NCBI GenBank assembly: GCA_000004985.1
Contig: GG738855.1
Reading direction: 5' to 3' (one strand)
Origin: Naegleria gruberi
Lineage: Eukaryota
Length of the DNA: 64,000 nt
Shown here: positions 24,685 to 35,707 of the stretch, piece after piece
How the letters are laid out: each line of letters starts with the position of its first letter
Numbering within the stretch: the stretch's first letter is position 1
Notes under the pieces: generated by a model
Told to the model about the DNA's origin: nothing
Databases searched by the model: none
The model's input: the letters and a program-made list of their open reading frames with translations, nothing else
Made by a program: the position numbers and the translations under genes

Positions 24685-26463
24685 TTAATGACAATTCTCA
24701 GCTGCTGATGATTCTCTAGAGTTTGCATTGTTTGTTGTTTGTTGTTGACCTTTGAGGGAGTAGAATTTCCAAAATACCAATTGCAGAGCTGCACAAACCA
24801 AATTTCCAACAACAAACAAGTAGAAGAGTGTTGATGCTCCTGATTCAACCTTATCTTGATTCACAAAGAGAGCAGCAACTGATGGAGCAAGGGAATAGGC
24901 AGGTTTAGTCAACAATGCATTAATACCAAATGTGTTTCCACTATTCTTTTCTTTACGTTTGAAAACGACATAATCCTCATCCACAACATTACTCAAAGCA
25001 ATTTCCAACAATCTACCAACACTTCCTAAAATAATCATGTTGCAAAATAGGAACAGTACTGGAAGTGCTGATCCAATAATTCTTTCTTGAACTGTAATGG
25101 CAACAGCAATGAGACAGATAATACTAATCACACATCTCAATATGAAAGTATTTCTTAATAATGAATAAGCAGGGAATCTAATACTAAGATAACTATTAAG
25201 CACAGCACATGATTCACTTGTAAAAGTTGTAACAGTCAAGTAAATAGAGGCCATATTACCACTGGTAAATAATGAAAAGTTATCTTCCATCCATGGTTGT
25301 ACATAATTTCTAATATATCTTACTTTGAATGAGTCAAATAATGCAACAGAGAAAATATTCAAAAAGTTCACAGCCACAAACAAATCAAAATTCTTGAGAG
25401 AAATTAATTGTTTGAAAATTGAGAAAAAGTCCAATAAATAATTTTTGATAATATACAACAAATGCCTGAATGTAAATCTGGTTTCTGGAGCTTCAGGGAC
25501 TTCCTCATCGCTTACTTCACTTGCAACAACTGGAGTATTAGTAAGACTCTGGGCTCTCCCTCTATTAATTAAATAATTACCAAAGTAAATGATACAGAAT
25601 GATAGAACAGCCAAGCATGTGCAATAAATTCTAAAATAGTTCAAGTTTCCAGTGTACTTTGAATTTCCTTGATCCTGACTTGGTCTTTCAAATAAAATAA
25701 ATGTTGGCAAGAGAAAGAGGGAACCCAAAACACTGCAAGTACTGACAGCTGTGCTTATTTTACCCTTTTCTTTGTCACTTTCAGTCAATTCAGGTAACAA
25801 TGCACAATGATTCAATACTAGCCAAGTAAATGATGTATCCCAAAAGAAGAGCGCACAAATAAATTGCACAAATGCAATGAAATCTCCAAGACCTGTTCTT
25901 TGATCTCCTTCAAATAAACCTCTTATTTGAATCCAAGGTAAGAGGAATGAAATGACAAGAAAAGGAGCTCCAAATAACATTAATCGTTGCCTAGAATATC
26001 TCTTCTTTTTATCATTAATCAATTCATCACTTATATAGCCAAATAATGGATCATTGACTGCATTAAATATAGCAAATAAGAATTGACCAATATAAAAGTA
26101 ATTATACGGTAAATTATGAATAAATAGAAATGTTTCAACATAATACGAATTAAATATATGATTCAACATTTGTGTTCCCAAAATTGTTAGAGCATATCCT
26201 CCTATTGTAGCTGTTTGTATCGATGATGATTTCGGAGATATTGACAATTCTACATCATGATGATCCAAAAAGGCTTTTTCCTCATAACTATTCTTTGTAT
26301 CGTCTGTAATTATACTTTCATTATCAATGGCAATTTCTTCTCCACTTTTTGATGCTATTATTGTTGTTGTATTCTTATTAGAATCATCCAAATCATTGAA
26401 ATTTTCTCCTCCTTCATCACTGTTGCCAAAGCCTTTCGGGCTTGTGCTGGAGAACTTTTTCAT
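24685..26463 (-). CDS. GPH-family / MFSD2-like major facilitator transporter, 592 aa
   Basis: Multiple TM helices and the GPH signature NAVNDPLFGYISD. About 12 hydrophobic segments, hydrophilic N-terminus. Confidence 0.8.
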   Translation of the reverse strand: MKKFSSTSPKGFGNSDEGGENFNDLDDSNKNTTTIIASKSGEEIAIDNESIITDDTKNSYEEKAFLDHHDVELSISPKSSSIQTATIGGYALTILGTQMLNHIFNSYYVETFLFIHNLPYNYFYIGQFLFAIFNAVNDPLFGYISDELINDKKKRYSRQRLMLFGAPFLVISFLLPWIQIRGLFEGDQRTGLGDFIAFVQFICALFFWDTSFTWLVLNHCALLPELTESDKEKGKISTAVSTCSVLGSLFLLPTFILFERPSQDQGNSKYTGNLNYFRIYCTCLAVLSFCIIYFGNYLINRGRAQSLTNTPVVASEVSDEEVPEAPETRFTFRHLLYIIKNYLLDFFSIFKQLISLKNFDLFVAVNFLNIFSVALFDSFKVRYIRNYVQPWMEDNFSLFTSGNMASIYLTVTTFTSESCAVLNSYLSIRFPAYSLLRNTFILRCVISIICLIAVAITVQERIIGSALPVLFLFCNMIILGSVGRLLEIALSNVVDEDYVVFKRKEKNSGNTFGINALLTKPAYSLAPSVAALFVNQDKVESGASTLFYLFVVGNLVCAALQLVFWKFYSLKGQQQTTNNANSRESSAAENCH

Positions 26464-26827
26464 TTTTTTAATGATTAATATTTAATATTAATTGATGATG
26501 AGAATCGGATTCATCATTATAATTAATCGGATCTTTACAATGAATGACAAAAAGAGTAATGCTACTACAGTGGTTATAAGGCTCAATTTCTTATTGAACA
26601 GTTGTAATCACCTTTATGTTATTAGAGAGTGGTAATAATAATCACAAAGTTACTTTTGCTTGTTATTGTTTTTTTCTTTAAAAAAACGAAAGCAACTAAG
26701 GCTTGTTATTTTAGATTCCCTCACTCAAAAAAAGGCTTCTTGGAAGAAATGTTGGAACAATTAGCCAAATACAAAGAATACTCAAGTAAACATTCTTCTC
26801 TCAAGTAGGAATAAATTTAATCATATT

Positions 26828-28670
26828 TTACCTTTGCTTCTTGTGAGGTGGTTGATCACTTCTTTCATATCTTCTAGATTCTGCAGCACCAGATGATCTT
26901 TGATAGTTTGCTGGTCTTGCATTTCTAGCAGTAAGTTCATTTGTTGTTTCTCGTGGTAGTATTGATCTTGGATTGTGGCTGAGTGGATGACCATCTTCGA
27001 AAAACCATTCATGATTCAGAGCTTCTTTAGCAGTTATTCTCTTGTTTGGATTGAGGGTGAGAAGTCGTTCCAATAGATCCAAGGCCTTTTCTGAACAATT
27101 AACATCCTTAAAACGTTTTCTCAAAGTATTGGGAATTGGTTCTGTTGGCTTAACTGTTGTCCATGCATCCAATTCCACAACTTCTGGCCAATCTTCCAAG
27201 TCTGGTGTACCACAACAGTTAAATATTTGTACTAATTGATCAGTTTCATTTTCTCCCATGAATAATGCTCGTTCTCTGAGTAATAATTCTCCAAAAATAC
27301 ATCCAACAGACCACATATCAATAGATGCCCCATAACTTGTTGATCCCATGAGTACATCAGGAGCACGATACCATCTTGTAACAACCTTGTTAGTGTAATT
27401 ATTATTTGTTCTCTTTTTAAAGAGAGAAAGTCCACTAAAGAAAAATTAATAAAATTAAAACTATGGGGTAACTTACAAATCTGCAAGTTTTAAAACACCA
27501 TCTCTTCTAATTAGAATATTTGATGTTTTCAAATCTCTGTGATAAACATTACTAGAATGGCAATAGTACAAGGCATCAATCAATTGATACATGAAAAATC
27601 TTAAATGAGATTCAGAGAATTTAATTCCCATTTCGGATAATCCAGCCAAATCATGATCAACAAACTCAAAAATCATAAAGAATGACTTGTCGTCCCAAGA
27701 AATATCCAAGAGTTTGACAATATTCTCATGATTCAATTCTCTCAAAATTTTAATTTCTCGAATAGTAGTTATTGGAAAACCTGCTTGTTTTTCCTTGCTC
27801 AAGTCACTCCTCATCTTCTTTGCAGCGACAAAGCCAGGTTTATCTCCCAATCTGGCTTGATACACCTTAAAAAAAAGTTAATAAATTCCAATCCAAATAA
27901 CATACCTCTCCATATGTTCCTTCTCCTAATTTTCTAATATTAGTATAATCATTGATAGTTTTTGTTAAATGTGTAAAAGCTTCAGAGAGTGTTCCGATTT
28001 TTGGTTCTGGATCTTCTGGAGGAACTTGTGGATAGGATGGACTTTTTTCTGGATAATTTCTTGATGATCCTCTATTATTATTGTATCGATCAGATTGGTG
28101 GTAATCCTCATAATCTTTATAACTTCGTTTTCCATGATAATTGTTATTTTCTCTATTATCCCTACCACCACTATCACGTCTATTATAATTGTCTCTGTTA
28201 TCTCTCCCGTCTCTATTATCCCTTCCATCCCTATTGTCTCGTTGATAATATCTTTTATCATTATTTCTCTGATAATTATTATTATTATTACTATTATTGT
28301 TATAAGATCGTTTATAATTATCCTGATAATCATCACCATCCTCTCTATTATTACCTCTATAAGAATCGGAAAGTCTCCTATCATATCTACTATTATCATT
28401 CCTGGAGTGTTGTTCATGTCCTCTAGAATCCGTTAATCTTCTTTCGTTGTTCCTACTATTATCATATGAATCTCTCCTCCTATCATAATCTCTTGATGAA
28501 AGCCTTCTATCATGATTGTTATTATCATTATATCTTCTATCAGAATGACCACCACTACCACTACCCCCTCCATGATGAGAAGGAGATCTGTCCCCTCTAT
28601 TTTGTTGGTGACCACTACCGTGATGATGAGAAGACGATGAAGAGGAGTGATGCGAATCGTGATGACTCAT
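26828..28670 (-). CDS. Cyclin-dependent kinase of the transcriptional CDK9/CDK12(CTK1)-like group, with a long N-terminal RD/N/Y-rich low-complexity arm. Three exons: 27906..28670, 27477..27865, 26828..27435; introns 27866..27905 and 27436..27476
   Basis: ATG at 28670 (MSHHDSHHSSSS...), then NRDGRDNRDGRDNRDN-type repeats. Kinase motifs GEGTYGEV|YQARL...AAKK (exon junction), PITTIREIKILRELNHENIV, HRDLKTSNIL, KLAD|FGLS (junction, GTAAGT donor), WYRAPDVL, DMWSVGCIF. Both junctions restore canonical kinase subdomains. Confidence 0.85.
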
Positions 28671-29071
28671 TTTTTTTTGATTATTAATTTTTAAAATAAA
28701 AATAGAATTCTTCATTTCTATTTGTTGTATTACAAAGAAGCAGAAGATTTTGTGTTTTGGATTACATTGAATGTTTGCTGGGTTGTTTAAATTTAGAAAA
28801 TAGTATTTGATGTTGCTTGAATTAGAATGGATCATATCTTGTTTAAGATTGTTGTATATTTGGTTGAATATTCATTGAAAATATTAGAATTTGATTCAAT
28901 ATCCAGAAGCAATTTCTTTCAAAAATTGATCAATTGAACTTTTCAAAAATAGGAGTAGTAGTGATGTATTTCACAGACTATTTTCATTGATTATCCTCAA
29001 TTAGTAGTACATCAAAATAGTATTTTTTATTTGATATACTATTTTCTTATTTACATTGAAACAAAAGAATA

Positions 29072-29975
29072 TTAATTAAATGTTGTGGCTGGTGTACTTG
29101 GTTCCATGGTCATGTTTGAATATTTTGGTCTTTTAAAGTGTGAGAAACAAAGGAATGCAACCATAAATACTTGAATCACCAATAAGGTAATAATCAAAAT
29201 CAAATTAACCACATTAAGTGAAACCAATGGTTCAGGAGGTAAAGTTCTACAAAGGTCAAAAGTTGCCAATGCAGGGAATGAAACCTTAACCCAAGGATTA
29301 GCAGCATAATTATATTCCCATGAAATTGACTTTTCAGAAATGATTGCTTCATCAATAGTATTGGATGTGGCTGTGAATTGTCTATAGCCATGAAGATGTT
29401 TCACATTATCAGTAAATTGAATGGTTACTTTCTTTGGGAAAATGGTAATTGGGCCAGTAAAATCAATTTTAACAGAGTCAACCTAATATAAATGTTGCAA
29501 TTTTAACAATCAAATCCATAACACTTACTGTTTCTTGTGCAACAAGAGGTCCAGACATTTGATAATTCAAAGTAAAAGCATCACTTCCTGCCTTTGAAAT
29601 TGGAGTATCAAGATAGACTGCAATTTCGTAATATTGACCACTCTTTACAATGGTAGTGTTCACAATTTTCTTTGTAATTGATGTTGCAATCACTGAACGA
29701 GCAACAATATCAACATTACCCTCAACATTTGAAATAAACCTCGAAAAGTATCCAACTTCCTTATCCACTTGATTATTGGTAACAATGAATGATTCCACAA
29801 TATTTACATAACAATCATCAGTTACCTCCACAACAGAAGTCAATGAACCAATTGCATAATTTGCTTCACAATTAATTGGACTTGTAAGGATGAATGTGGC
29901 CATCATGAACAAGACTGCCATCATGATGGTTCTACCACCAACATTGAAATTCATTTTTTTCTTCAGGTTACTCAT
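29072..29975 (-). CDS. Type-I membrane protein of unknown function (signal peptide, about 230-aa luminal beta-rich domain, one TM, short basic tail). Two exons: 29529..29975 and 29072..29482; intron 29483..29528
   Basis: Signal peptide MMAVLFMMATFILTSPINC. Donor ACA|GTAAGT in phase 0; the acceptor ATTAG|GTT joins ...VAQET|VDSVKIDFTGP... in frame. C-terminal TM LVSLNVVNLILIITLLVIQVFMVAFLCF, then KRPKY. Confidence 0.6.
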
Positions 29976-30485
29976 TGTTGTTGAGAAGACATTTGGAATC
30001 AGTTGAGACTTTCAATGAATGTTGATGAAAGTGTCAAAGTTGTGGAATTTCCATGCAAGATTTTCTCTGTAATAACACCGCGATTCAATCAATATTAATG
30101 CAATTTGATAGGGTTTGGATAGGAACAGGCCTTTTTTGGAGTTGTGTTCTCAACGAAACTTCAATTTTGGTCAGTTGATAGCTAAAGGTTTCTGTCTTTA
30201 TATTTGTAAGATTTTCCAAATCGGATGAATTTCTTCTCGGATGATCCACAACAATAGCTGTTCACATTGTTGTAAAGAGGTAAATGCTTAATATTTATTG
30301 AGATATTTTATTAAAGATTTTTTGAATAGAAGAGCACAATACCTAAATCACTAAACGTGAAGTAAATCACAATAATATTACGTTTAAGGTATCTGCTTGT
30401 AAACAATAAAAAATAATACGTTAAGTGGTAGATTAAAAAATGTGTAGAAACGCTCCCTCTATGGTGGTTATGGTATTATCATGAA

Positions 30486-30558
30486 GCTGGCGTAGCTCAG
30501 TCGGTAGAGCGTTGGTCTAATAAGCCATTGGTCGCCGGTTCGATCCCGTCCGTCAGCA
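30486..30558 (+). tRNA. tRNA-Ile (anticodon AAT)
   Basis: GCTGGCG-TA-GCTC-AGTCGGTA-GAGC-G-TTGGT-CTAATAA-GCCAT-TGGTC-GCCGG-TTCGATC-CCGTC-CGTCAGC-A. 7-bp acceptor stem with one G-U. Anticodon loop CTAATAA as in eukaryotic tRNA-Ile(AAU). T-loop TTCGATC. By my folding, one mismatch each in the anticodon stem (T27-T43) and the T stem (C50-T64). Confidence 0.85.
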
Positions 30559-30741
30559 TTCCTTTTTAATGGACATTTTCCTAAGCATCAAGGAGCACTT
30601 CCTCTTACTACGAAATATTGATTCTCTTATTCCAATAGCGAAATGCGCATTCGGACACCACTTCGAGCAAATGTCTTCAAGTAAAAAAGCTCGGCAAATC
30701 ATTTTCACTTTCTTTTTAAAAAATATTATCATCATCAACAA

Positions 30742-31929
30742 ATGAATAGACAGGCACAAATTGCCCACCACAATAGTGGTCTTGATGTGATTACCATGTT
30801 GACCAACTTGAATTTAAAGCCTAGTACTGAATCTATAATAATTTATTTATCTGCTGTTCTTTTTTCTGTGATTGGAACCTTGTTGATCCCTGGCAAGTGG
30901 GTTCCGGGAGCTCCACTCAAGGATAATTCTAGAGTTTATTATAAAACCAATGGATTGTTGGTTGTTCTTGTTGGAAGTTTAATTTATGGAGCATTGTGTT
31001 ATACTAATTTCCAATTTGCTGGTCAAGCTATCTACACTTTGATCTGTAATAGTTTTGGTGAATTATTGACAGTCAGTTTGGTATTCAGTATCTTGTTGAC
31101 TACTTTATTATATTTGAGAGGTTTATTTATTATTCCAGAGAAGGAAAGAAACTTCCTTTATCCAAAGTGGAACATTCCAATGAATTTTTGGTGTGGTGTT
31201 GAATTGAATCCACACTTTTTCGGATTTGAAATTAAGGAATTCTCATATAGACCTGCATTCTTGATGATGTCAGTTTTAAATTTGAGTTATGCTTTTGAAC
31301 AATATCGTCTTTATGGAGCTCTTTCAACAAATTTAGTGACATTCCAAGCTATTAGTTTCTTCTATACCATTGATGCTTTTGTCTTTGAATATGGACTTAT
31401 TTATATGTTTGATATTATTGAAGAAAACTTTGGTTTCATGTTGGTATTTGGTGATTATTTGTGGATGCCTTTTGTTTTCACTCTCCAAAACTTGTACCTT
31501 GTCAATGATTTCAATGTTAACCACACTCAAACATTTGTCAATATTGCCATCTTTATCGTTGGTTATATCATTTTCAGAGGTGCCAACAATCAAAAGTTTG
31601 TCTATCGTCAAGATCCAAAACAAGTTTGGTTGGGACTTATTGAACCAAAGACATTGGAAACTGCTAGAGATAGAAAATTATTAATTTCAGGATTCTGGGG
31701 AGTTGCCAGAAAGATCAATTATTTGGGTGATATTCTCATTGCTATTGCTCAAAGTTTACCATGTCTTCAATGTGGTTACTTATTACCATGGTTGTATCCA
31801 ATTTACTTGACTGCTCTTCTCTTCCACAGAGCTATGAGAGACAATGAAAGATGTAAGGAAAAGTATGGTAAATTCTGGGACGAATATTGCAAGAAGGTTA
31901 AATGGGTTATGATTCCAGGTGTTTATTAA
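30742..31929 (+). CDS. Sterol reductase of the ERG4/ERG24/DHCR7/TM7SF2 family, 395 aa
   Basis: Polytopic membrane protein. Family signatures LLISGFWGVARKINYLGDIL and the C-terminal LLFHRAMRDNERCKEKYGKFWDEYCKKVKWVMIPGVY. Confidence 0.85.
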   Translation: MNRQAQIAHHNSGLDVITMLTNLNLKPSTESIIIYLSAVLFSVIGTLLIPGKWVPGAPLKDNSRVYYKTNGLLVVLVGSLIYGALCYTNFQFAGQAIYTLICNSFGELLTVSLVFSILLTTLLYLRGLFIIPEKERNFLYPKWNIPMNFWCGVELNPHFFGFEIKEFSYRPAFLMMSVLNLSYAFEQYRLYGALSTNLVTFQAISFFYTIDAFVFEYGLIYMFDIIEENFGFMLVFGDYLWMPFVFTLQNLYLVNDFNVNHTQTFVNIAIFIVGYIIFRGANNQKFVYRQDPKQVWLGLIEPKTLETARDRKLLISGFWGVARKINYLGDILIAIAQSLPCLQCGYLLPWLYPIYLTALLFHRAMRDNERCKEKYGKFWDEYCKKVKWVMIPGVY

Positions 31930-32060
31930 ACAAATTATAATTTTTCTTAGCATTACATTTTGACAACTCAACAATTTTCATCTTGGCACGTTTCTTTTAA
32001 GCCACGACAAACAACTGATGAAGACAATTTTAATACGAAAAAATATTTTAAAAATAAAAA

Positions 32061-33093
32061 ATGTCCTTCAGAATTGCCTTGAGAAGTTTGACTTCACCTT
32101 TCGTTAAGACTTCAAAGACTACATCTTTGGTTGCTAATCAAACTAGTAAAATGTTCTATGTAGGTGTTCTCACTTATATATTTTTGTTTAGAATTATTTT
32201 TAATCCGATAATTTATTCCGGAATATCATCTTGTGGATTTGTATGATTAAATGATGATAACATGATGACTATACAATGATGAACAAATTGTTATTATTAT
32301 TAATTGTTTTTATTGTTGGAAATGTTAGCATCAATCAATGATGATGAATAACCAAGCAGCCAAGAAGGAAGAAAAGAAAAAGACTGCAGCTGTTATTTTG
32401 AGCGGATGTGGATTTATGGATGGAAGTGATGTTGTTGAATCTGTTAGTGTTATTGTTGAATTGACAAGAAAAGGAATTGTTCCAAGATTCTTCTCACCAC
32501 ACGAAGAAATTGATGAATCATACAATTATATTACAAAACAAATTGATTCAAGCGAAGAAAGATATATGCATAAGGAAAGTGCTCGTATTGCACGTGAAAA
32601 GATTTTGAGCATTGACCAACTTCGTGCTGATCAATTTGACATGTTAGTTATTCCAGGTGGTAATGGAGTTGTTCGTAATTTGTCTAATTTTGAACAAGAA
32701 GAATATAATGTTAATGAAGTTGAAGTTAATTCACATGTTGAAAAGGCCATTGTTGACTTTTTCAAACAAAAGAAACCAATTGGCTTTATGTCAAACTCTG
32801 TTATTTTAGGTGCTAAGGCTTTGGGTAAAGTTTCAGGAAAGACTGGAAATGGTATTGCTGTTGCTTTGGGTAAGACTTTGGATCGAGTTTTTGTTGAAAC
32901 TCTCATGACAAAGTTTGGTAATGAACTCTCTCAAGAAAGTGGTGATGCTGAAGTTGTTTGTACTGATTCTTCACATCGTATTGCTAGCGTTGCCAGTGTT
33001 TCTGCTGCTGGTACTGTTCAACCAAATGAAATTCATGCTGCTGCTAAGAATTTAATTGAAGAATTGATTGATTTGACCAAGAGGGAAGAATAA
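32061..33093 (+). CDS. GATD3: ES1/GATD3 (DJ-1/PfpI-class glutamine amidotransferase-like) protein with an N-terminal mitochondrial targeting peptide on a separate exon. Two exons: 32061..32159 and 32329..33093; intron 32160..32328
   Basis: Exon 1 MSFRIALRSLTSPFVKTSKTTSLVANQTSKMFY is an amphipathic R/S/T-rich presequence with no acidic residues, ending at TAT|GTAGGT. The acceptor GTTAG|CAT is in frame with HQSMMMNN.... The body matches human ES1 closely: AAVILSGCGFMDGSD, ESARIAREKI, LVIPGGNGVVRNLSNF, KPIGFMSNSVIL. Confidence 0.8.
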
Positions 33094-33295: not shown

Positions 33296-34420
33296 ATGCT
33301 CTCAACCACCTCTCAGATTGACAAAGATAATGATAGTGGTGATGAATCGGAAGGCTCCTCCGAATTATTTAAAGGCTACATTAAAATTGATTCATCTAAC
33401 AAACATTGGGATATGGATCAAAAGCAAACTAAACTATTCAAGAAGGTCAAATGGGTCGCCACAGAAAAGGTTCATGGAGCTAATTTCTGCTTTTTTATGA
33501 ATGAAGATTTGGGTGGAAATATTCATATTGAATGTGCAAAGAGGAAATCAATTTTAAGTGAAAATGATCAATTCTTTTATTTTCAAAAATTGAAAGAGAG
33601 ATTAACAAGTAAATTGGAAAATATATTCAGAATGGTCAAGACAAATTATCCAGATCTGATTCATGTTTATTTATTTGGTGAAATATTTGGTGGATTTTAT
33701 CCAAATATGCCAAAACTAGAAGGAATTGAACAACCAGTTCAAACAGGTATATGGTATACAAATGATATTGAATTTTATGCATTTGATATTGCAATTCAAA
33801 AGAGTGATTTGATTCAAATTTATTTAGATTACGAAGTAACATTGGAAATATTCTCAAAAAGTCAACTTTTATATGCAGAACCTTTATTAATTGCAAGTTA
33901 TGAAGAATGTATGGATATGGATGTTAAATTTGACTCGAAACTTCCTAAAAAATTAGGAATGCCATCACTTAATGAATCAAATTATGCTGAAGGTGTTGTG
34001 ATAAAACCAATGAAAGAAATTAACATTTCTAAAAAAGGAAAATTAGAACGAGCAATAATCAAGAGGAAAATTCAAGAATTTTCAGAAAAGAAATATGAAC
34101 AAGCTGTTAAATGGTCAACTCCAACCTCCAATTCATCATCAAATTCCATTGATGAATTAGAAGTTATCAAATATGAAGCATTGGCTTGCATTACAGAAAA
34201 TCGATTGAATAATGCAATTTCTAAAATTGGAAATATCGACACCAAAAACAAAGTACAAATGAATCAACTACTCCAGGCCTATATTCAAGATGTATTTGAT
34301 GAATTGAATGAATCAGGATTTCAAATATCCTCTTCACAAAAATCACAACTTGAAGAAGTAATTACTTTGGAATCAAAAAAGATTATTTTCCAATATTTTA
34401 AAAAACTTCAATCCAAGTAA
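33296..34420 (+). CDS. ATP-dependent RNA ligase of the Rnl2 family (T4 Rnl2 / kinetoplastid REL-like), about 375 aa
   Basis: Nucleotidyltransferase motif I ATEKVHGAN (KxHGxN, lysine adenylylation site, Rnl2-type), motif III YLFGEIFGG, motif IV EGVVIKP, motif V AIIKRK. The track ORF starts at a non-ATG codon at 33263; the first ATG is 33296. Confidence 0.7.
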   Translation: MLSTTSQIDKDNDSGDESEGSSELFKGYIKIDSSNKHWDMDQKQTKLFKKVKWVATEKVHGANFCFFMNEDLGGNIHIECAKRKSILSENDQFFYFQKLKERLTSKLENIFRMVKTNYPDLIHVYLFGEIFGGFYPNMPKLEGIEQPVQTGIWYTNDIEFYAFDIAIQKSDLIQIYLDYEVTLEIFSKSQLLYAEPLLIASYEECMDMDVKFDSKLPKKLGMPSLNESNYAEGVVIKPMKEINISKKGKLERAIIKRKIQEFSEKKYEQAVKWSTPTSNSSSNSIDELEVIKYEALACITENRLNNAISKIGNIDTKNKVQMNQLLQAYIQDVFDELNESGFQISSSQKSQLEEVITLESKKIIFQYFKKLQSK

Positions 34421-34510: not shown

Positions 34511-35707
34511 ATGGAACAACACGATGATGAAGATGCAAAGATTCGTATTGGGGAAAATAATATGTTAAATCCCTTCTCAATTCTTCCACAAGATTTATTC
34601 TATGAAATTTTACCATTTTTATCTCCGATAGAGGTTTTGCTAACTTTTCGATTAATTTTTAAAAATCATCAATTTATTTCCAAACATTTATTCGAATATT
34701 ATAATGAAAAAACAAGATTATTGGATAGGCTGAAAATATCGGATCATATTAAACAGGAGAATAAGAATTTGTTGGAGTGTTTTGATGAATTTCTAAATTT
34801 GGAAAGCGATAAATATTTGAGGAGAAAATTTATTAAATTTGCATTTAGATATGAAATTTATGAATTTTCTAAAAGAGTTTACAATAGTAGAAAACAGAGC
34901 ACGGATTTAGACTTTTGTAATGAGATGGAATGGATTGAAAATGATATTAAATGTTACAATAATTTATTTCAATATGCGAGAAGAAAATGTAACCAAGAGG
35001 AAGAAGAAATTAACAAAGAAGACAATAATTATATTATTAATACCGAACAAAAGAAATCTGATGGATTATTTTCAAGTATTTTAAAGTTTTTTACTAATTT
35101 TGGAATTACACCTCCTGAAACCGAACCCACAAGTAGTACTCACAAACCTACTTGTGAATCGTCAAAATATGGAAATAACGATTACATAGTGAAAGTATTA
35201 CTAGAAGGATTTTCTGGCAGTTCAAAACACAAATTCCGTAATTATATTATTCAAAATTCTTCAAAGTTTGAAGATTATAGACATTTTGAGGATTTCTCTA
35301 CGAAAACTTATTATTTTGGAAATCTCCAGTCTAAGCTACAGTTGTGGAATATTTCAGTGTATAAATTTAATAGCCTCATTTCAGCATATTATAGAGGTAG
35401 TTTTCTAGTAGTGCTCATTGTTGATCCATTTGATGATCGGGAATTGGAGGGATTAAGTGAAAAGAAAAAATTAATTCTTGAAAATATTTCAAAAGAAGCA
35501 CAAATAGTTCTTGTAACAAAGAAAGAATGGGAAAATGGAAATAAGAGACTTCTTTCGAATGATAATGCTGATTTCATGGCATTTGATGAATTTAATAGTT
35601 TTCATATTGATATTTCAGACCCTTATGATATTGATAGCCCTCAATGTATTGTGCTTTATGCAATGTTATTGAAATATATCATTGCATACCAATTTGAAAC
35701 TAAATGA
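34511..35707 (+). CDS. F-box-like N-terminus fused to a degenerate Ras/Rab-like (pseudo-GTPase) domain, about 398 aa
   Basis: LPQDLFYEILPFLSPIEVLLTFRLIFKNHQF is F-box-like. C-terminal Ras fold with decayed motifs: P-loop VKVLLEGFSGSSKHK, switch II LWNISVYKF, VLIVDPFD, NKxD position LVTKKEW. First ATG at 34511 (MEQHDDED). Confidence 0.6.
   Translation: MEQHDDEDAKIRIGENNMLNPFSILPQDLFYEILPFLSPIEVLLTFRLIFKNHQFISKHLFEYYNEKTRLLDRLKISDHIKQENKNLLECFDEFLNLESDKYLRRKFIKFAFRYEIYEFSKRVYNSRKQSTDLDFCNEMEWIENDIKCYNNLFQYARRKCNQEEEEINKEDNNYIINTEQKKSDGLFSSILKFFTNFGITPPETEPTSSTHKPTCESSKYGNNDYIVKVLLEGFSGSSKHKFRNYIIQNSSKFEDYRHFEDFSTKTYYFGNLQSKLQLWNISVYKFNSLISAYYRGSFLVVLIVDPFDDRELEGLSEKKKLILENISKEAQIVLVTKKEWENGNKRLLSNDNADFMAFDEFNSFHIDISDPYDIDSPQCIVLYAMLLKYIIAYQFETK

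What the first reader, a model, noticed from the sequence alone, without database searches (positions are those of the whole stretch)
33296..34420. Stand-alone Rnl2-type ATP-dependent RNA ligase in a eukaryotic nuclear genome
The ORF carries the covalent nucleotidyltransferase motif set of the T4 Rnl2 / kinetoplastid editing-ligase clade. Motif I is the Rnl2-specific KxHGxN (ATEKVHGAN), followed by FGEIFGG, EGVVIKP and a K-x-K motif V. Outside kinetoplastid RNA editing, Rnl2-clade ligases are rare and patchily distributed in eukaryotes. The gene is unspliced, about 375 aa, with a C-terminal domain I cannot assign. It could be an RNA-repair or tRNA-processing ligase, or a horizontally acquired enzyme.
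Basis: partly seen in the sequence, partly recalled or inferred. Interest (0 to 1): 0.6.

Follow-up and report, generated by a model that had tools for sequence, protein, structure and literature searches.

The report
Known Naegleria Rnl2-type RNA ligase gene

Summary
Pfam gives RNA_ligase PF09414 (6.5e-21). Pfam also assigns the "unassignable" C-terminus to T4_Rnl2_C PF18043 (1.5e-10). The best solved relatives by sequence and by predicted fold are TbREL1 and full-length T4 Rnl2; DNA ligases and capping enzymes score far lower. Every T4 Rnl2 catalytic residue checked is conserved, including the C-domain Arg/Asp pair.

The protein is 100% identical to N. gruberi XP_002679917.1 (NAEGRDRAFT_64622). 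Unciuleac & Shuman 2015 (PMC4408790) name that accession as one of five Rnl2-family ligases in this organism. It has never been assayed.

New here:
- It is a native nuclear gene, with eukaryotic neighbours and host-like codon usage.
- It is syntenic in N. fowleri and N. lovaniensis, present in Willaertia, and under purifying selection (dN/dS about 0.2).
- It belongs to a large, mostly bacterial "cellular" Rnl2 clade that also holds bdelloid rotifers, Anaeramoeba and Amoebozoa. It lies outside the kinetoplastid REL clade.
- Its N-terminus is acidic and does not look like a mitochondrial presequence.

Best reading: a cytosolic or nuclear ATP-dependent ligase that seals 3'-OH/5'-PO4 nicks for RNA repair. 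Interest is low.

The parts
33296..34420 (+). Complete unspliced CDS of the Rnl2-family RNA ligase (374 aa plus TAA stop); identical to N. gruberi XP_002679917.1 / EFC47173.1 / NAEGRDRAFT_64622
33296..33367 (+). Acidic, low-complexity N-terminal tail (aa 1-24; 7 D/E, 1 K/R), predicted disordered (pLDDT below 50 for aa 1-21). It does not resemble a mitochondrial presequence. The same kind of tail is present in all five heterolobosean orthologues.
33368..34105 (+). Nucleotidyltransferase (adenylyltransferase) domain, aa 25-270 (Pfam PF09414 hit covers aa 52-256)
33458..33484 (+). Motif I, ATEKVHGAN (aa 55-63). Lys58 is the predicted AMP-accepting nucleophile (T4 Rnl2 Lys35); His60 matches T4 His37.
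33530..33550 (+). Motif Ia region, ECAKRKS (aa 79-85). Arg83 matches T4 Arg55 and is invariant.
33671..33694 (+). Motif III, LFGEIFGG (aa 126-133). Glu129 matches T4 Glu99. It is followed by a GG-Y-P...VQTG insertion shared with TbREL1 and the cellular clade but absent from T4 Rnl2.
33773..33790 (+). Motif IIIa, FYAFDI (aa 160-165). Phe163/Asp164 match T4 Phe119/Asp120.
33989..34009 (+). Motif IV, EGVVIKP (aa 232-238). Glu232 and Lys237 match T4 Glu204 and Lys209.
34052..34069 (+). Motif V, AIIKRK (aa 253-258). Lys256/Lys258 match T4 Lys225/Lys227.
34106..34153 (+). Ser/Asn-rich flexible interdomain linker (aa 271-286; pLDDT below 50 for aa 278-284), variable in length among orthologues
34154..34414 (+). 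All-helical C-terminal domain (aa 287-373, four predicted helices), matching Pfam T4_Rnl2_C PF18043 over aa 297-359. Arg303 and Asp332 match the T4 Arg266-Asp292 pair.

Best explanation
The gene encodes a catalytically competent, two-domain Rnl2-family ATP-dependent RNA ligase of Naegleria gruberi.

Inferred mechanism, the classic three-step ligase pathway:
1. Lys58 of motif I attacks the alpha-phosphate of ATP, giving ligase-(lysyl-N)-AMP plus PPi.
2. AMP is transferred to the 5'-PO4 at a nick. This step needs the helical C-terminal domain.
3. The 3'-OH of an RNA strand attacks the AppN end and seals a 3'-OH/5'-PO4 nick in duplex RNA or an RNA:DNA hybrid.

The protein stands alone, with no fused kinase, phosphatase or OB domain, and it has no mitochondrial-type presequence. 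It therefore most likely works in the cytosol or nucleus as one member of Naegleria's unusually large set of RNA-repair ligases.

Shown here: family membership, domain architecture, conservation of the catalytic residues, native genomic status and purifying selection. Inferred only: ATP dependence, nick specificity, cellular location and physiological substrate.
For: Family and fold:
- Pfam PF09414 6.5e-21 plus PF18043 1.5e-10. TIGR02307 'RNA ligase, Rnl2 family' is the only NCBIfam hit: 7.3e-51, aa 25-370 on model positions 1-323 of 326.
- phmmer against PDB: TbREL1 1xdn 1.5e-19; T4 Rnl2 2hvq 1.6e-11, with both domains aligned.
- AF2 model has mean pLDDT 89.8. Foldseek top hits are T4 Rnl2 2hvr (6.7e-19, 361 aligned columns) and TbREL1 (2.5e-18, TMt 0.74). 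Rnl5 scores about 1e-7; DNA ligases and capping enzymes score 1e-4 or worse.

Catalytic residues:
- Counterparts of T4 K35, H37, R55, E99, F119, D120, E204, K209, K225, K227, R266 and D292 are all conserved.
- K58, H60, R83, E129, F163, D164, E232, K256 and K258 are invariant in 53 homologues; R303 and D332 are at least 90% conserved.

Native gene under selection:
- Eukaryotic neighbours and host-like GC3 and codon usage.
- Intact unspliced orthologues in N. fowleri and N. lovaniensis in conserved microsynteny, and an orthologue in Willaertia.
- dN/dS 0.22 at dS 0.83 for N. fowleri versus N. lovaniensis.

Location and literature:
- The N-terminal tail is acidic in all orthologues.
- Unciuleac & Shuman 2015 list XP_002679917.1 among the five Rnl2-family ligases of N. 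gruberi.
Against: - No biochemical or expression data exist for this protein. The only paper found that names it merely lists the accession.
- The score on the NCBI equivalog model TIGR02307 (173.6 bits) is below its curated cut-off of 197.15. By that standard it is a divergent member, and functional equivalence with T4 Rnl2 is not guaranteed.
- T4 Thr39 is Ala62 here, and Arg33 is Thr56.
- Location was judged only by looking at the N-terminus; no targeting predictor was available.
- The list of residues essential in T4 Rnl2 comes from my own knowledge of the Shuman-lab mutagenesis papers. Only the R266-D292 pair is cited from a paper read here (PMC4599027).
Confidence: 0.85

Rival explanations
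1. It is a mitochondrial RNA-editing-type ligase: a functional counterpart or vertical orthologue of kinetoplastid REL1/REL2 that works in an editing or organellar RNA-processing complex.
For: - Its NTase domain is closer in sequence to TbREL1 (1.5e-19) than to T4 Rnl2 (1.6e-11).
- It shares with REL1 the extension after motif III that T4 Rnl2 lacks.
- Heterolobosea are the sister group of Euglenozoa (PMC4599027).
- The Acanthamoeba homologue is annotated 'RNA editing ligase'.
- Most kinetoplastid RELs also match PF18043, so the domain architecture does not separate the two groups.
Against: - In the NJ tree the RELs form their own clade (100%) on a long branch, outside the 'cellular' clade (91%) that holds the Naegleria protein.
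- The N-terminal tail is acidic in all five heterolobosean orthologues and is unlike a presequence.
- The insertion is much shorter than REL1's substrate loops 1 and 2 (loops as defined in PMC4599027).
- The nearest relatives are rotifer, Anaeramoeba and bacterial proteins from organisms with no U-insertion/deletion editing.
- No KREPA-like partner was looked for.
Confidence: 0.07
2. It is a relatively recent horizontal acquisition from bacteria or a virus, or assembly contamination, and not an integrated Naegleria gene.
For: The clade it sits in is mostly bacterial (cyanobacteria, Chloroflexota, Myxococcota, Planctomycetota), with 33-41% identity over nearly the full length. The gene has no introns. 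A strong match to phage family PHROG 548 exists.
Against: - It lies inside a 613-kb contig between bona fide eukaryotic genes.
- GC (0.29), GC3 (0.22) and codon usage are like its neighbours.
- Orthologues are syntenic in two other Naegleria species and present in Willaertia.
- The closest non-heterolobosean relatives are eukaryotic (bdelloid rotifers, Anaeramoeba), although the support is modest at 52-74%.

An ancient transfer before the Naegleria/Willaertia split remains possible and is compatible with the best explanation.
Confidence: 0.05
3. It is a catalytically dead or repurposed paralogue, for example an RNA-binding or adenylate-binding pseudoenzyme, left over from the expansion of ligase genes in Naegleria.
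For: N. gruberi has 13 classic ATP-dependent RNA ligase genes, five of them Rnl2-type, so redundancy is likely (PMC4408790). The score is below the TIGR02307 equivalog cut-off.
Against: All catalytic residues checked are intact and invariant across the family. dN/dS is about 0.2. Insertions and deletions among orthologues fall in loops, the linker and the N-terminal tail, and all catalytic motifs are retained. The model of both domains is confident.
Confidence: 0.03

Closest known systems
Bacteriophage T4 RNA ligase 2 (gp24.1; PDB 2HVQ/2HVR/1S68), prototype of the Rnl2 family
   Same: Same two-domain architecture: an N-terminal NTase domain with motifs I, Ia, III, IIIa, IV and V, plus the helical T4_Rnl2_C domain. 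All catalytic residues checked and the C-domain Arg-Asp pair are conserved. It is the best fold match over both domains, 6.7e-19.
   Different: Only about 21-25% identical. The Naegleria protein has a 24-aa acidic N-terminal tail, a longer segment between motifs III and IIIa, and a longer Ser/Asn-rich linker. Thr39 is Ala and Arg33 is Thr. It is a cellular eukaryotic gene, not a phage gene.
Trypanosoma brucei RNA editing ligase 1 (TbREL1/KREL1, PDB 1XDN) and kinetoplastid REL1/REL2
   Same: Closest solved NTase domain by sequence (1.5e-19; 29% identity; TMt 0.74, rmsd 3.8 Å). Both share the GG/GA-x-Y-x-x-P extension after motif III. Most RELs also match PF18043.
   Different: The RELs form a separate, 100%-supported long-branch clade. 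They are mitochondrial editosome subunits that bind RNA through OB-fold partners KREPA2 and KREPA1, and they carry longer substrate loops 1 and 2 (PMC4599027). The Naegleria protein has no presequence-like N-terminus, shorter loops, and K-x-K instead of K-x-R in motif V.
The 'cellular' Rnl2 clade: uncharacterised bacterial 'Rnl2 family RNA ligase' proteins (Tolypothrix, Scytonema, Planktothrix, Chloroflexaceae, Polyangium) and eukaryotic homologues (bdelloid rotifers, Anaeramoeba, Acanthamoeba, Arcella, Copromyxa, Ceratiomyxa)
   Same: 33-48% identical over at least 80-90% of the length, with the same two Pfam domains and a similar size of 330-400 aa. This is the clade the protein belongs to.
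   Different: None of these is characterised, so they add no functional information. The bacterial example I examined (Tolypothrix) has no obvious repair-operon partners.
NgrRnl (N. gruberi Rnl5; PDB 5COT), the characterised nick-sealing RNA ligase of the same organism
   Same: Same organism, the same NTase superfamily fold, and probably a similar nick-sealing chemistry.
   Different: A different family. NgrRnl has a defining N-terminal domain and no C-terminal domain (PMC4408790). It has no significant sequence match to this protein at E up to 1, and only the NTase core aligns structurally, at about 1e-7.

Membership tests
Rnl2 family of ATP-dependent RNA ligases (T4 Rnl2 type) | Covalent nucleotidyltransferase domain with motifs I (KxHGxN), Ia, III, IIIa, IV and V | tested here: met
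   PF09414 6.5e-21. All motif residues align to T4 Rnl2 and TbREL1 and are invariant in 53 homologues.
Rnl2 family of ATP-dependent RNA ligases (T4 Rnl2 type) | Signature all-helical C-terminal domain (T4 aa 244-329) with the Arg266-Asp292 pair | tested here: met
   PF18043 1.5e-10, aa 297-359. Four predicted helices over aa 287-373 at high pLDDT. Foldseek aligns 361 columns to full-length 2hvr. R303 and D332 are conserved.
Rnl2 family of ATP-dependent RNA ligases (T4 Rnl2 type) | Score above the curated cut-off of the NCBIfam equivalog model TIGR02307 | tested here: not met
   173.6 bits against a cut-off of 197.15. It is the sole hit, full-length, at E 7.3e-51. So this is a family member by homology, but more divergent than the strict equivalog threshold allows.
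Rnl2 family of ATP-dependent RNA ligases (T4 Rnl2 type) | ATP-dependent lysine adenylylation and sealing of 3'-OH/5'-PO4 nicks in duplex RNA or RNA:DNA | not testable with these tools
   Needs recombinant enzyme assays. No published assay of this protein was found.
Kinetoplastid RNA editing ligases (REL1/REL2) | Phylogenetic placement inside the REL clade | tested here: not met
   NJ tree with 200 bootstraps: REL clade 100%, excluding the query; the query lies in the cellular clade (91%). NJ is a simple method and long-branch effects are possible.
Kinetoplastid RNA editing ligases (REL1/REL2) | Mitochondrial targeting | tested here: inconclusive
   The N-terminal 24 aa hold 7 acidic residues and 1 basic residue and are predicted disordered. 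The orthologues are the same. This argues against a presequence, but no targeting predictor or experiment was available.
Kinetoplastid RNA editing ligases (REL1/REL2) | Long substrate-binding loops 1 and 2 in the NTase domain, and dependence on OB-fold partners (KREPA1/KREPA2) | tested here: not met
   The segment between motifs III and IIIa is about 14 residues shorter than in TbREL1 (loops defined in PMC4599027). The presence of KREPA-like partners was not tested.
Rnl5 family (DraRnl/NgrRnl) | Defining N-terminal domain fused to a C-terminal NTase domain, with no C-terminal appendage | tested here: not met
   The domain order here is NTase followed by a helical C domain. NgrRnl does not appear in the phmmer PDB search at E up to 1, and Foldseek gives only about 1e-7.
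ATP-dependent DNA ligases / mRNA capping enzymes | NTase domain followed by an OB-fold domain with motif VI, with best matches to those families | tested here: not met
   No Pfam DNA-ligase or capping hit at E up to 1. The C-terminal domain is all-helical. Foldseek E-values for DNA ligases and capping enzymes are 1e-4 or worse, against 1e-18 to 1e-19 for the top T4 Rnl2 and TbREL1 matches.

The most novel reading that the evidence does not exclude
The heterolobosean Rnl2 could be a slowly evolving, vertically inherited Discoba gene: a surviving representative of the cellular stock from which the fast-evolving kinetoplastid editing ligases REL1/REL2 were recruited. The evidence compatible with this is its REL1-like NTase features (higher similarity to REL1 than to T4 Rnl2, and the shared post-motif-III extension) together with a T4-type, self-sufficient C domain. 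If true, the enzyme would show what the ligase looked like before the editosome existed.

A second reading is also not excluded. The clade is concentrated in cyst-forming or desiccation-tolerant organisms: bdelloid rotifers, soil amoebae, and filamentous cyanobacteria. This hints at a role in break repair after desiccation, analogous to the radiation phenotype reported for Deinococcus Rnl5 (title and abstract of PMC5397189).
Probability: 0.12. Interest if true: 0.5.

Novelty: already known. Interest (0 to 1): 0.15.

Why it matters
It matters little as a discovery. The gene is annotated in the N. gruberi genome, carries precomputed Pfam Rnl2 domains, and was named by accession as an Rnl2-family ligase in 2015. 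Its remaining value is as an uncharacterised enzyme. Naegleria's 15 putative RNA ligases (13 classic ATP-dependent ligases plus 2 RtcB) are an unexplained expansion of RNA-repair capacity in a eukaryote. This paralogue is the one most like the bacterial, rotifer and amoebozoan Rnl2 proteins, and it combines a REL1-like NTase domain with a T4-type C domain. Biochemistry and localisation of this protein could address two questions: what cellular Rnl2 enzymes do in eukaryotes, and where the kinetoplastid editing ligases came from.

Tried and rejected
- **Reciprocal search with the TbREL1 NTase domain.** It returned only 36 proteins. Those that carry a name are kinetoplastid RELs and the rest are 42-82% identical to TbREL1; none of the proteins appeared. 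The word-index limit prevented any test of whether the Naegleria clade is REL's nearest neighbour.
- **Other Rnl2 paralogues in the window.** tblastn of the protein against the 64-kb window found only the gene itself.
- **Repair partners next to the gene.** I looked for fused or adjacent Pnkp, Hen1, kinase or phosphatase genes. None is present in Naegleria, and none in the Tolypothrix bacterial context.
- **Structured RNAs near the gene.** The Rfam and ARAGORN scans found only a tRNA-Ile about 2.7 kb upstream.
- **Literature check of T4 Rnl2 essential residues.** The searches found nothing usable, so most of that residue list rests on my own knowledge plus the conservation measured here.
- **Rnl2 in bdelloid rotifers.** No paper was found.
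- **Maximum-likelihood phylogeny.** No such program was installed. The tree is neighbour-joining with Kimura-corrected distances and 200 bootstraps. It is adequate for clade membership but not for deep branching order.
- **The other four N. gruberi Rnl2 paralogues named in the 2015 paper.** They could not be fetched by accession and are not among the best 120 hits. This implies they are more distant from this protein than bacterial homologues scoring 201 bits. I did not verify that directly.
Full report
**1. Observation**

The window holds an ORF on the + strand whose first ATG is at 33296 and whose TAA stop ends at 34420. It encodes 374 aa, and in-frame stops lie upstream.
- ATEKVHGAN, aa 55-63
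- (L)FGEIFGG, aa 126-133
- EGVVIKP, aa 232-238
- K-x-K motif V, within AIIKRK, aa 253-258

**2. What it is: family**

- Pfam gives two domains above their gathering scores: RNA_ligase PF09414 (6.5e-21, aa 52-256) and T4_Rnl2_C PF18043 (1.5e-10, aa 297-359).
- The only NCBIfam hit is TIGR02307 'RNA ligase, Rnl2 family' (7.3e-51, aa 25-370 on model positions 1-323 of 326). Its 173.6 bits fall short of the equivalog cut-off of 197.15.
- PHROG 548 'RNA ligase' matches at 1.7e-44.
- Among solved structures, only TbREL1 (1xdn, 1.5e-19) and T4 Rnl2 (2hvq, 1.6e-11, both domains; 1s68) match by sequence at E up to 1.
- An AlphaFold2 model built on a 53-sequence alignment is confident (mean pLDDT 89.8). 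Only the N-terminal 21 residues and a linker at aa 278-284 are disordered. It shows a mixed alpha/beta NTase domain followed by four long helices.
- Foldseek against the PDB ranks full-length T4 Rnl2 first (2hvr, 6.7e-19, 361 aligned columns). TbREL1 comes next (2.5e-18, TMt 0.74, rmsd 3.8 Å). Naegleria's own Rnl5 enzyme NgrRnl follows at about 1e-7, then Rnl3 and Trl1, and then DNA ligases and capping enzymes at 1e-4 or worse.

**3. Catalytic residues**

I aligned the protein with T4 Rnl2 and with TbREL1. The TbREL1 sequence was reconstructed. The correspondences are:

| T4 Rnl2 | Naegleria protein |
|---|---|
| Tyr5 | Tyr28 |
| Glu34 / Lys35 / His37 / Asn40 | Glu57 / Lys58 / His60 / Asn63 |
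| Arg55 | Arg83 |
| Glu99 | Glu129 |
| Phe119 / Asp120 | Phe163 / Asp164 |
| Glu204 / Lys209 | Glu232 / Lys237 |
| Lys225 / Lys227 | Lys256 / Lys258 |
| Arg266 / Asp292 (C domain) | Arg303 / Asp332 |

- The statement that these residues are functionally important in T4 Rnl2 rests on my own knowledge of the Shuman-lab mutagenesis and structures. The R266-D292 salt bridge is also mentioned in PMC4599027.
- Independently of that knowledge, K58, H60, R83, E129, F163, D164, E232, K256 and K258 are invariant in 53 homologues. R303 and D332 are at least 90% conserved.
- Differences from T4: Thr39 is Ala62 and Arg33 is Thr56.
- After motif III the protein carries a GG-x-Y-P...VQTG extension. TbREL1 shares this in a longer form, and T4 Rnl2 lacks it.

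**4. Organism, and whether the gene is known**

- The protein is 100% identical over its full length to 'predicted protein [Naegleria gruberi]' on a 613-kb contig. Its accessions are XP_002679917.1, EFC47173.1, NAEGRDRAFT_64622 and UniProt D2V706.
[quoted passage not shown] )'. The first accession in that list is this protein.
- A full-text search for the four identifiers found only that paper. The family assignment is therefore published, but no biochemistry or biology has been reported.
- It is not NgrRnl, the characterised Rnl5 enzyme XP_002669268.1. It is also not the N. gruberi sequence XP_002674912.1 used by Moreira et al. 2015.

**5. A native nuclear gene under selection**

- Neighbours within 10 kb are an MFS transporter, an ERG4/ERG24 sterol reductase, a DJ-1-like protein, a CFAP58 flagellar coiled-coil protein, a KIF9-type kinesin and a Ras GTPase.
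- GC (0.29), GC3 (0.22) and relative codon usage (r = 0.74 against neighbours) lie within the range of the neighbouring genes.
- N. fowleri and N. lovaniensis carry intact single-exon orthologues (53-63% identity). They sit in conserved microsynteny: DJ-1-like, ERG24, MFS_2, ligase, then KIF9 kinesin.
- Willaertia magna has an orthologue (48%) in a different but eukaryotic context.
- The length differences (374 to 445 aa) come from low-complexity insertions in loops, the linker and the N-terminal tail; every catalytic motif is retained.
- Nei-Gojobori dN/dS is 0.22 for N. fowleri versus N. lovaniensis at dS 0.83. It is 0.17-0.36 for the more saturated pairs.
- All five heterolobosean proteins begin with an acidic, disordered tail (7 D/E and 1 K/R in the first 24 aa of N. 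gruberi). This argues against a mitochondrial presequence.

**6. Relatives**

- The family is large: 2,499 50%-identity cluster representatives at E up to 1e-3, and 293 at E up to 1e-30.
- After the Heterolobosea, the best hits are bdelloid rotifers (Rotaria, Didymodactylos; 42-45%).
- Unnamed metagenome proteins come next. The two contigs I examined (P0007 and P0020) encode Sina, BIR, RING and legumain genes, so they are eukaryotic and probably from rotifers.
- Further down are Anaeramoeba (41%), filamentous cyanobacteria (Tolypothrix, Coleofasciculus, Scytonema, Planktothrix), Acanthamoeba ('RNA editing ligase', 37%), Chloroflexota, Myxococcota and Planctomycetota.
- EukProt transcriptome hits belong to the amoebozoans Copromyxa protea, Ceratiomyxa fruticulosa and Arcella intermedia.
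- I built a neighbour-joining tree (348 columns, 200 bootstraps, rooted on T4 Rnl2). Supports were:
  - Heterolobosea, 99%
  - Heterolobosea + Anaeramoeba, 52%
  - that group + bdelloid rotifers, 74%
  - the whole 'cellular' clade, 91%
  - kinetoplastid RELs, 100%, as a separate long-branch clade
- 66 of the 70 aligned proteins match PF18043. Only 4 fail, so at least 12 of the 16 RELs match. The REL C-terminal region therefore appears to be homologous to the T4 C domain.
- Lateral transfer of Rnl2 into other protists (anaerobic ciliates) has been reported recently (PMC13198582).
- The deep branching order is not resolved. An ancient eukaryotic gene with many losses, and several ancient transfers, are both possible. 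A recent transfer or contamination is excluded.

**7. Mechanism**

The best-supported explanation is a stand-alone, catalytically active Rnl2 enzyme:
1. Lys58 is adenylylated by ATP.
2. AMP is passed to the 5'-PO4 of a nick, with help from the C domain.
3. The RNA 3'-OH attacks and seals the nick in duplex RNA or an RNA:DNA hybrid.

It would work in the cytosol or nucleus as part of Naegleria's expanded RNA-repair set. Family, architecture, catalytic residues and selection are shown here. Substrate, cofactor, location and physiological role are inferred from T4 Rnl2 and REL1. The physiological substrates of cellular Rnl2 and Rnl5 enzymes are unknown in general (PMC4408790).

**8. Rivals**

- A REL-like mitochondrial editing ligase (about 7%).
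- A recent transfer or contamination (about 5%).
- A dead paralogue (about 3%).

Each is argued against by the evidence above.

**9. Verdict**

The feature is nevertheless an annotated gene that is already catalogued in the literature as a member of a well-known enzyme family. Novelty is 'already known' and interest is low (0.15).

The most novel reading not excluded is that this slowly evolving heterolobosean enzyme represents the cellular ancestor-type of the kinetoplastid editing ligases (probability about 0.12). A looser alternative links the clade to desiccation and break repair in cyst-forming and anhydrobiotic organisms.

Noticed in passing
window 30486-30558 (+): A single tRNA-Ile (anticodon AAT) gene lies about 180 bp upstream of the ERG4/ERG24 gene and about 2.7 kb upstream of the ligase. 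It is the only Rfam or ARAGORN hit in the 64-kb window.
   Followed up: no
P0006, P0017-P0019, P0022, P0025; loci L004 6001-7056 and L006 6001-7056: Bdelloid rotifers (Rotaria, Didymodactylos) carry a 100%-supported clade of full-length Rnl2 genes. These are the closest non-heterolobosean relatives of the Naegleria protein (42-45% identity). No paper in the library mentions both Rnl2 and bdelloids. This may be an unreported foreign-gene family in bdelloids.
   Followed up: partly
alignment A2 (kinetoplastid REL proteins P0121-P0154): 66 of the 70 aligned proteins match Pfam T4_Rnl2_C at E up to 1e-3, so at least 12 of the 16 kinetoplastid editing ligases do. The REL C-terminal (KREPA-binding) region therefore appears to be homologous to the T4 Rnl2 C domain and not a different module.
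   Followed up: partly
window 24685-33093 compared with L001 and L007 1-7800: The ERG24 and DJ-1-like pair lies between MFS_2 and the ligase in N. gruberi, but on the far side of MFS_2 in N. fowleri and N. lovaniensis, so the order and relative orientation of the ERG24/DJ-1-like and MFS_2 genes differ. Those two species also have a protein-kinase gene between ERG24 and MFS_2. No kinase was found among the ORFs I scanned in the corresponding N. gruberi interval, though the 173-aa ORF at 26828-27349 was not scanned.
   Followed up: no
window 34571-35707 (+): The 378-aa ORF immediately downstream of the ligase has no Pfam match at E up to 1e-3. By eye it looks like an F-box-like N-terminus (LPQDLFYEILPFLSP) followed by a degenerate small-GTPase-like segment (…SAYYRGSFLVVLIVD…). 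The genes at the same position in N. fowleri and N. lovaniensis (619 and 577 aa) are also unannotated.
   Followed up: no
window 32338-33093 (+): The 251-aa ORF just upstream of the ligase has no significant Pfam hit here (only a sub-threshold DUF5856 match). Genes in the syntenic neighbourhoods of N. fowleri and N. lovaniensis, adjacent to ERG24 as here, carry faint DJ-1_PfpI hits, which suggests a divergent DJ-1/ES1-like protein.
   Followed up: no
P0001 compared with the hit list: The other four N. gruberi Rnl2 paralogues named in PMC4408790 are not among the best 120 hits, where the weakest score is 201 bits. This paralogue therefore appears closer to bacterial, rotifer and amoebozoan Rnl2 proteins than to its own genome's paralogues. 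That hints at separate origins or very old duplications.
   Followed up: no
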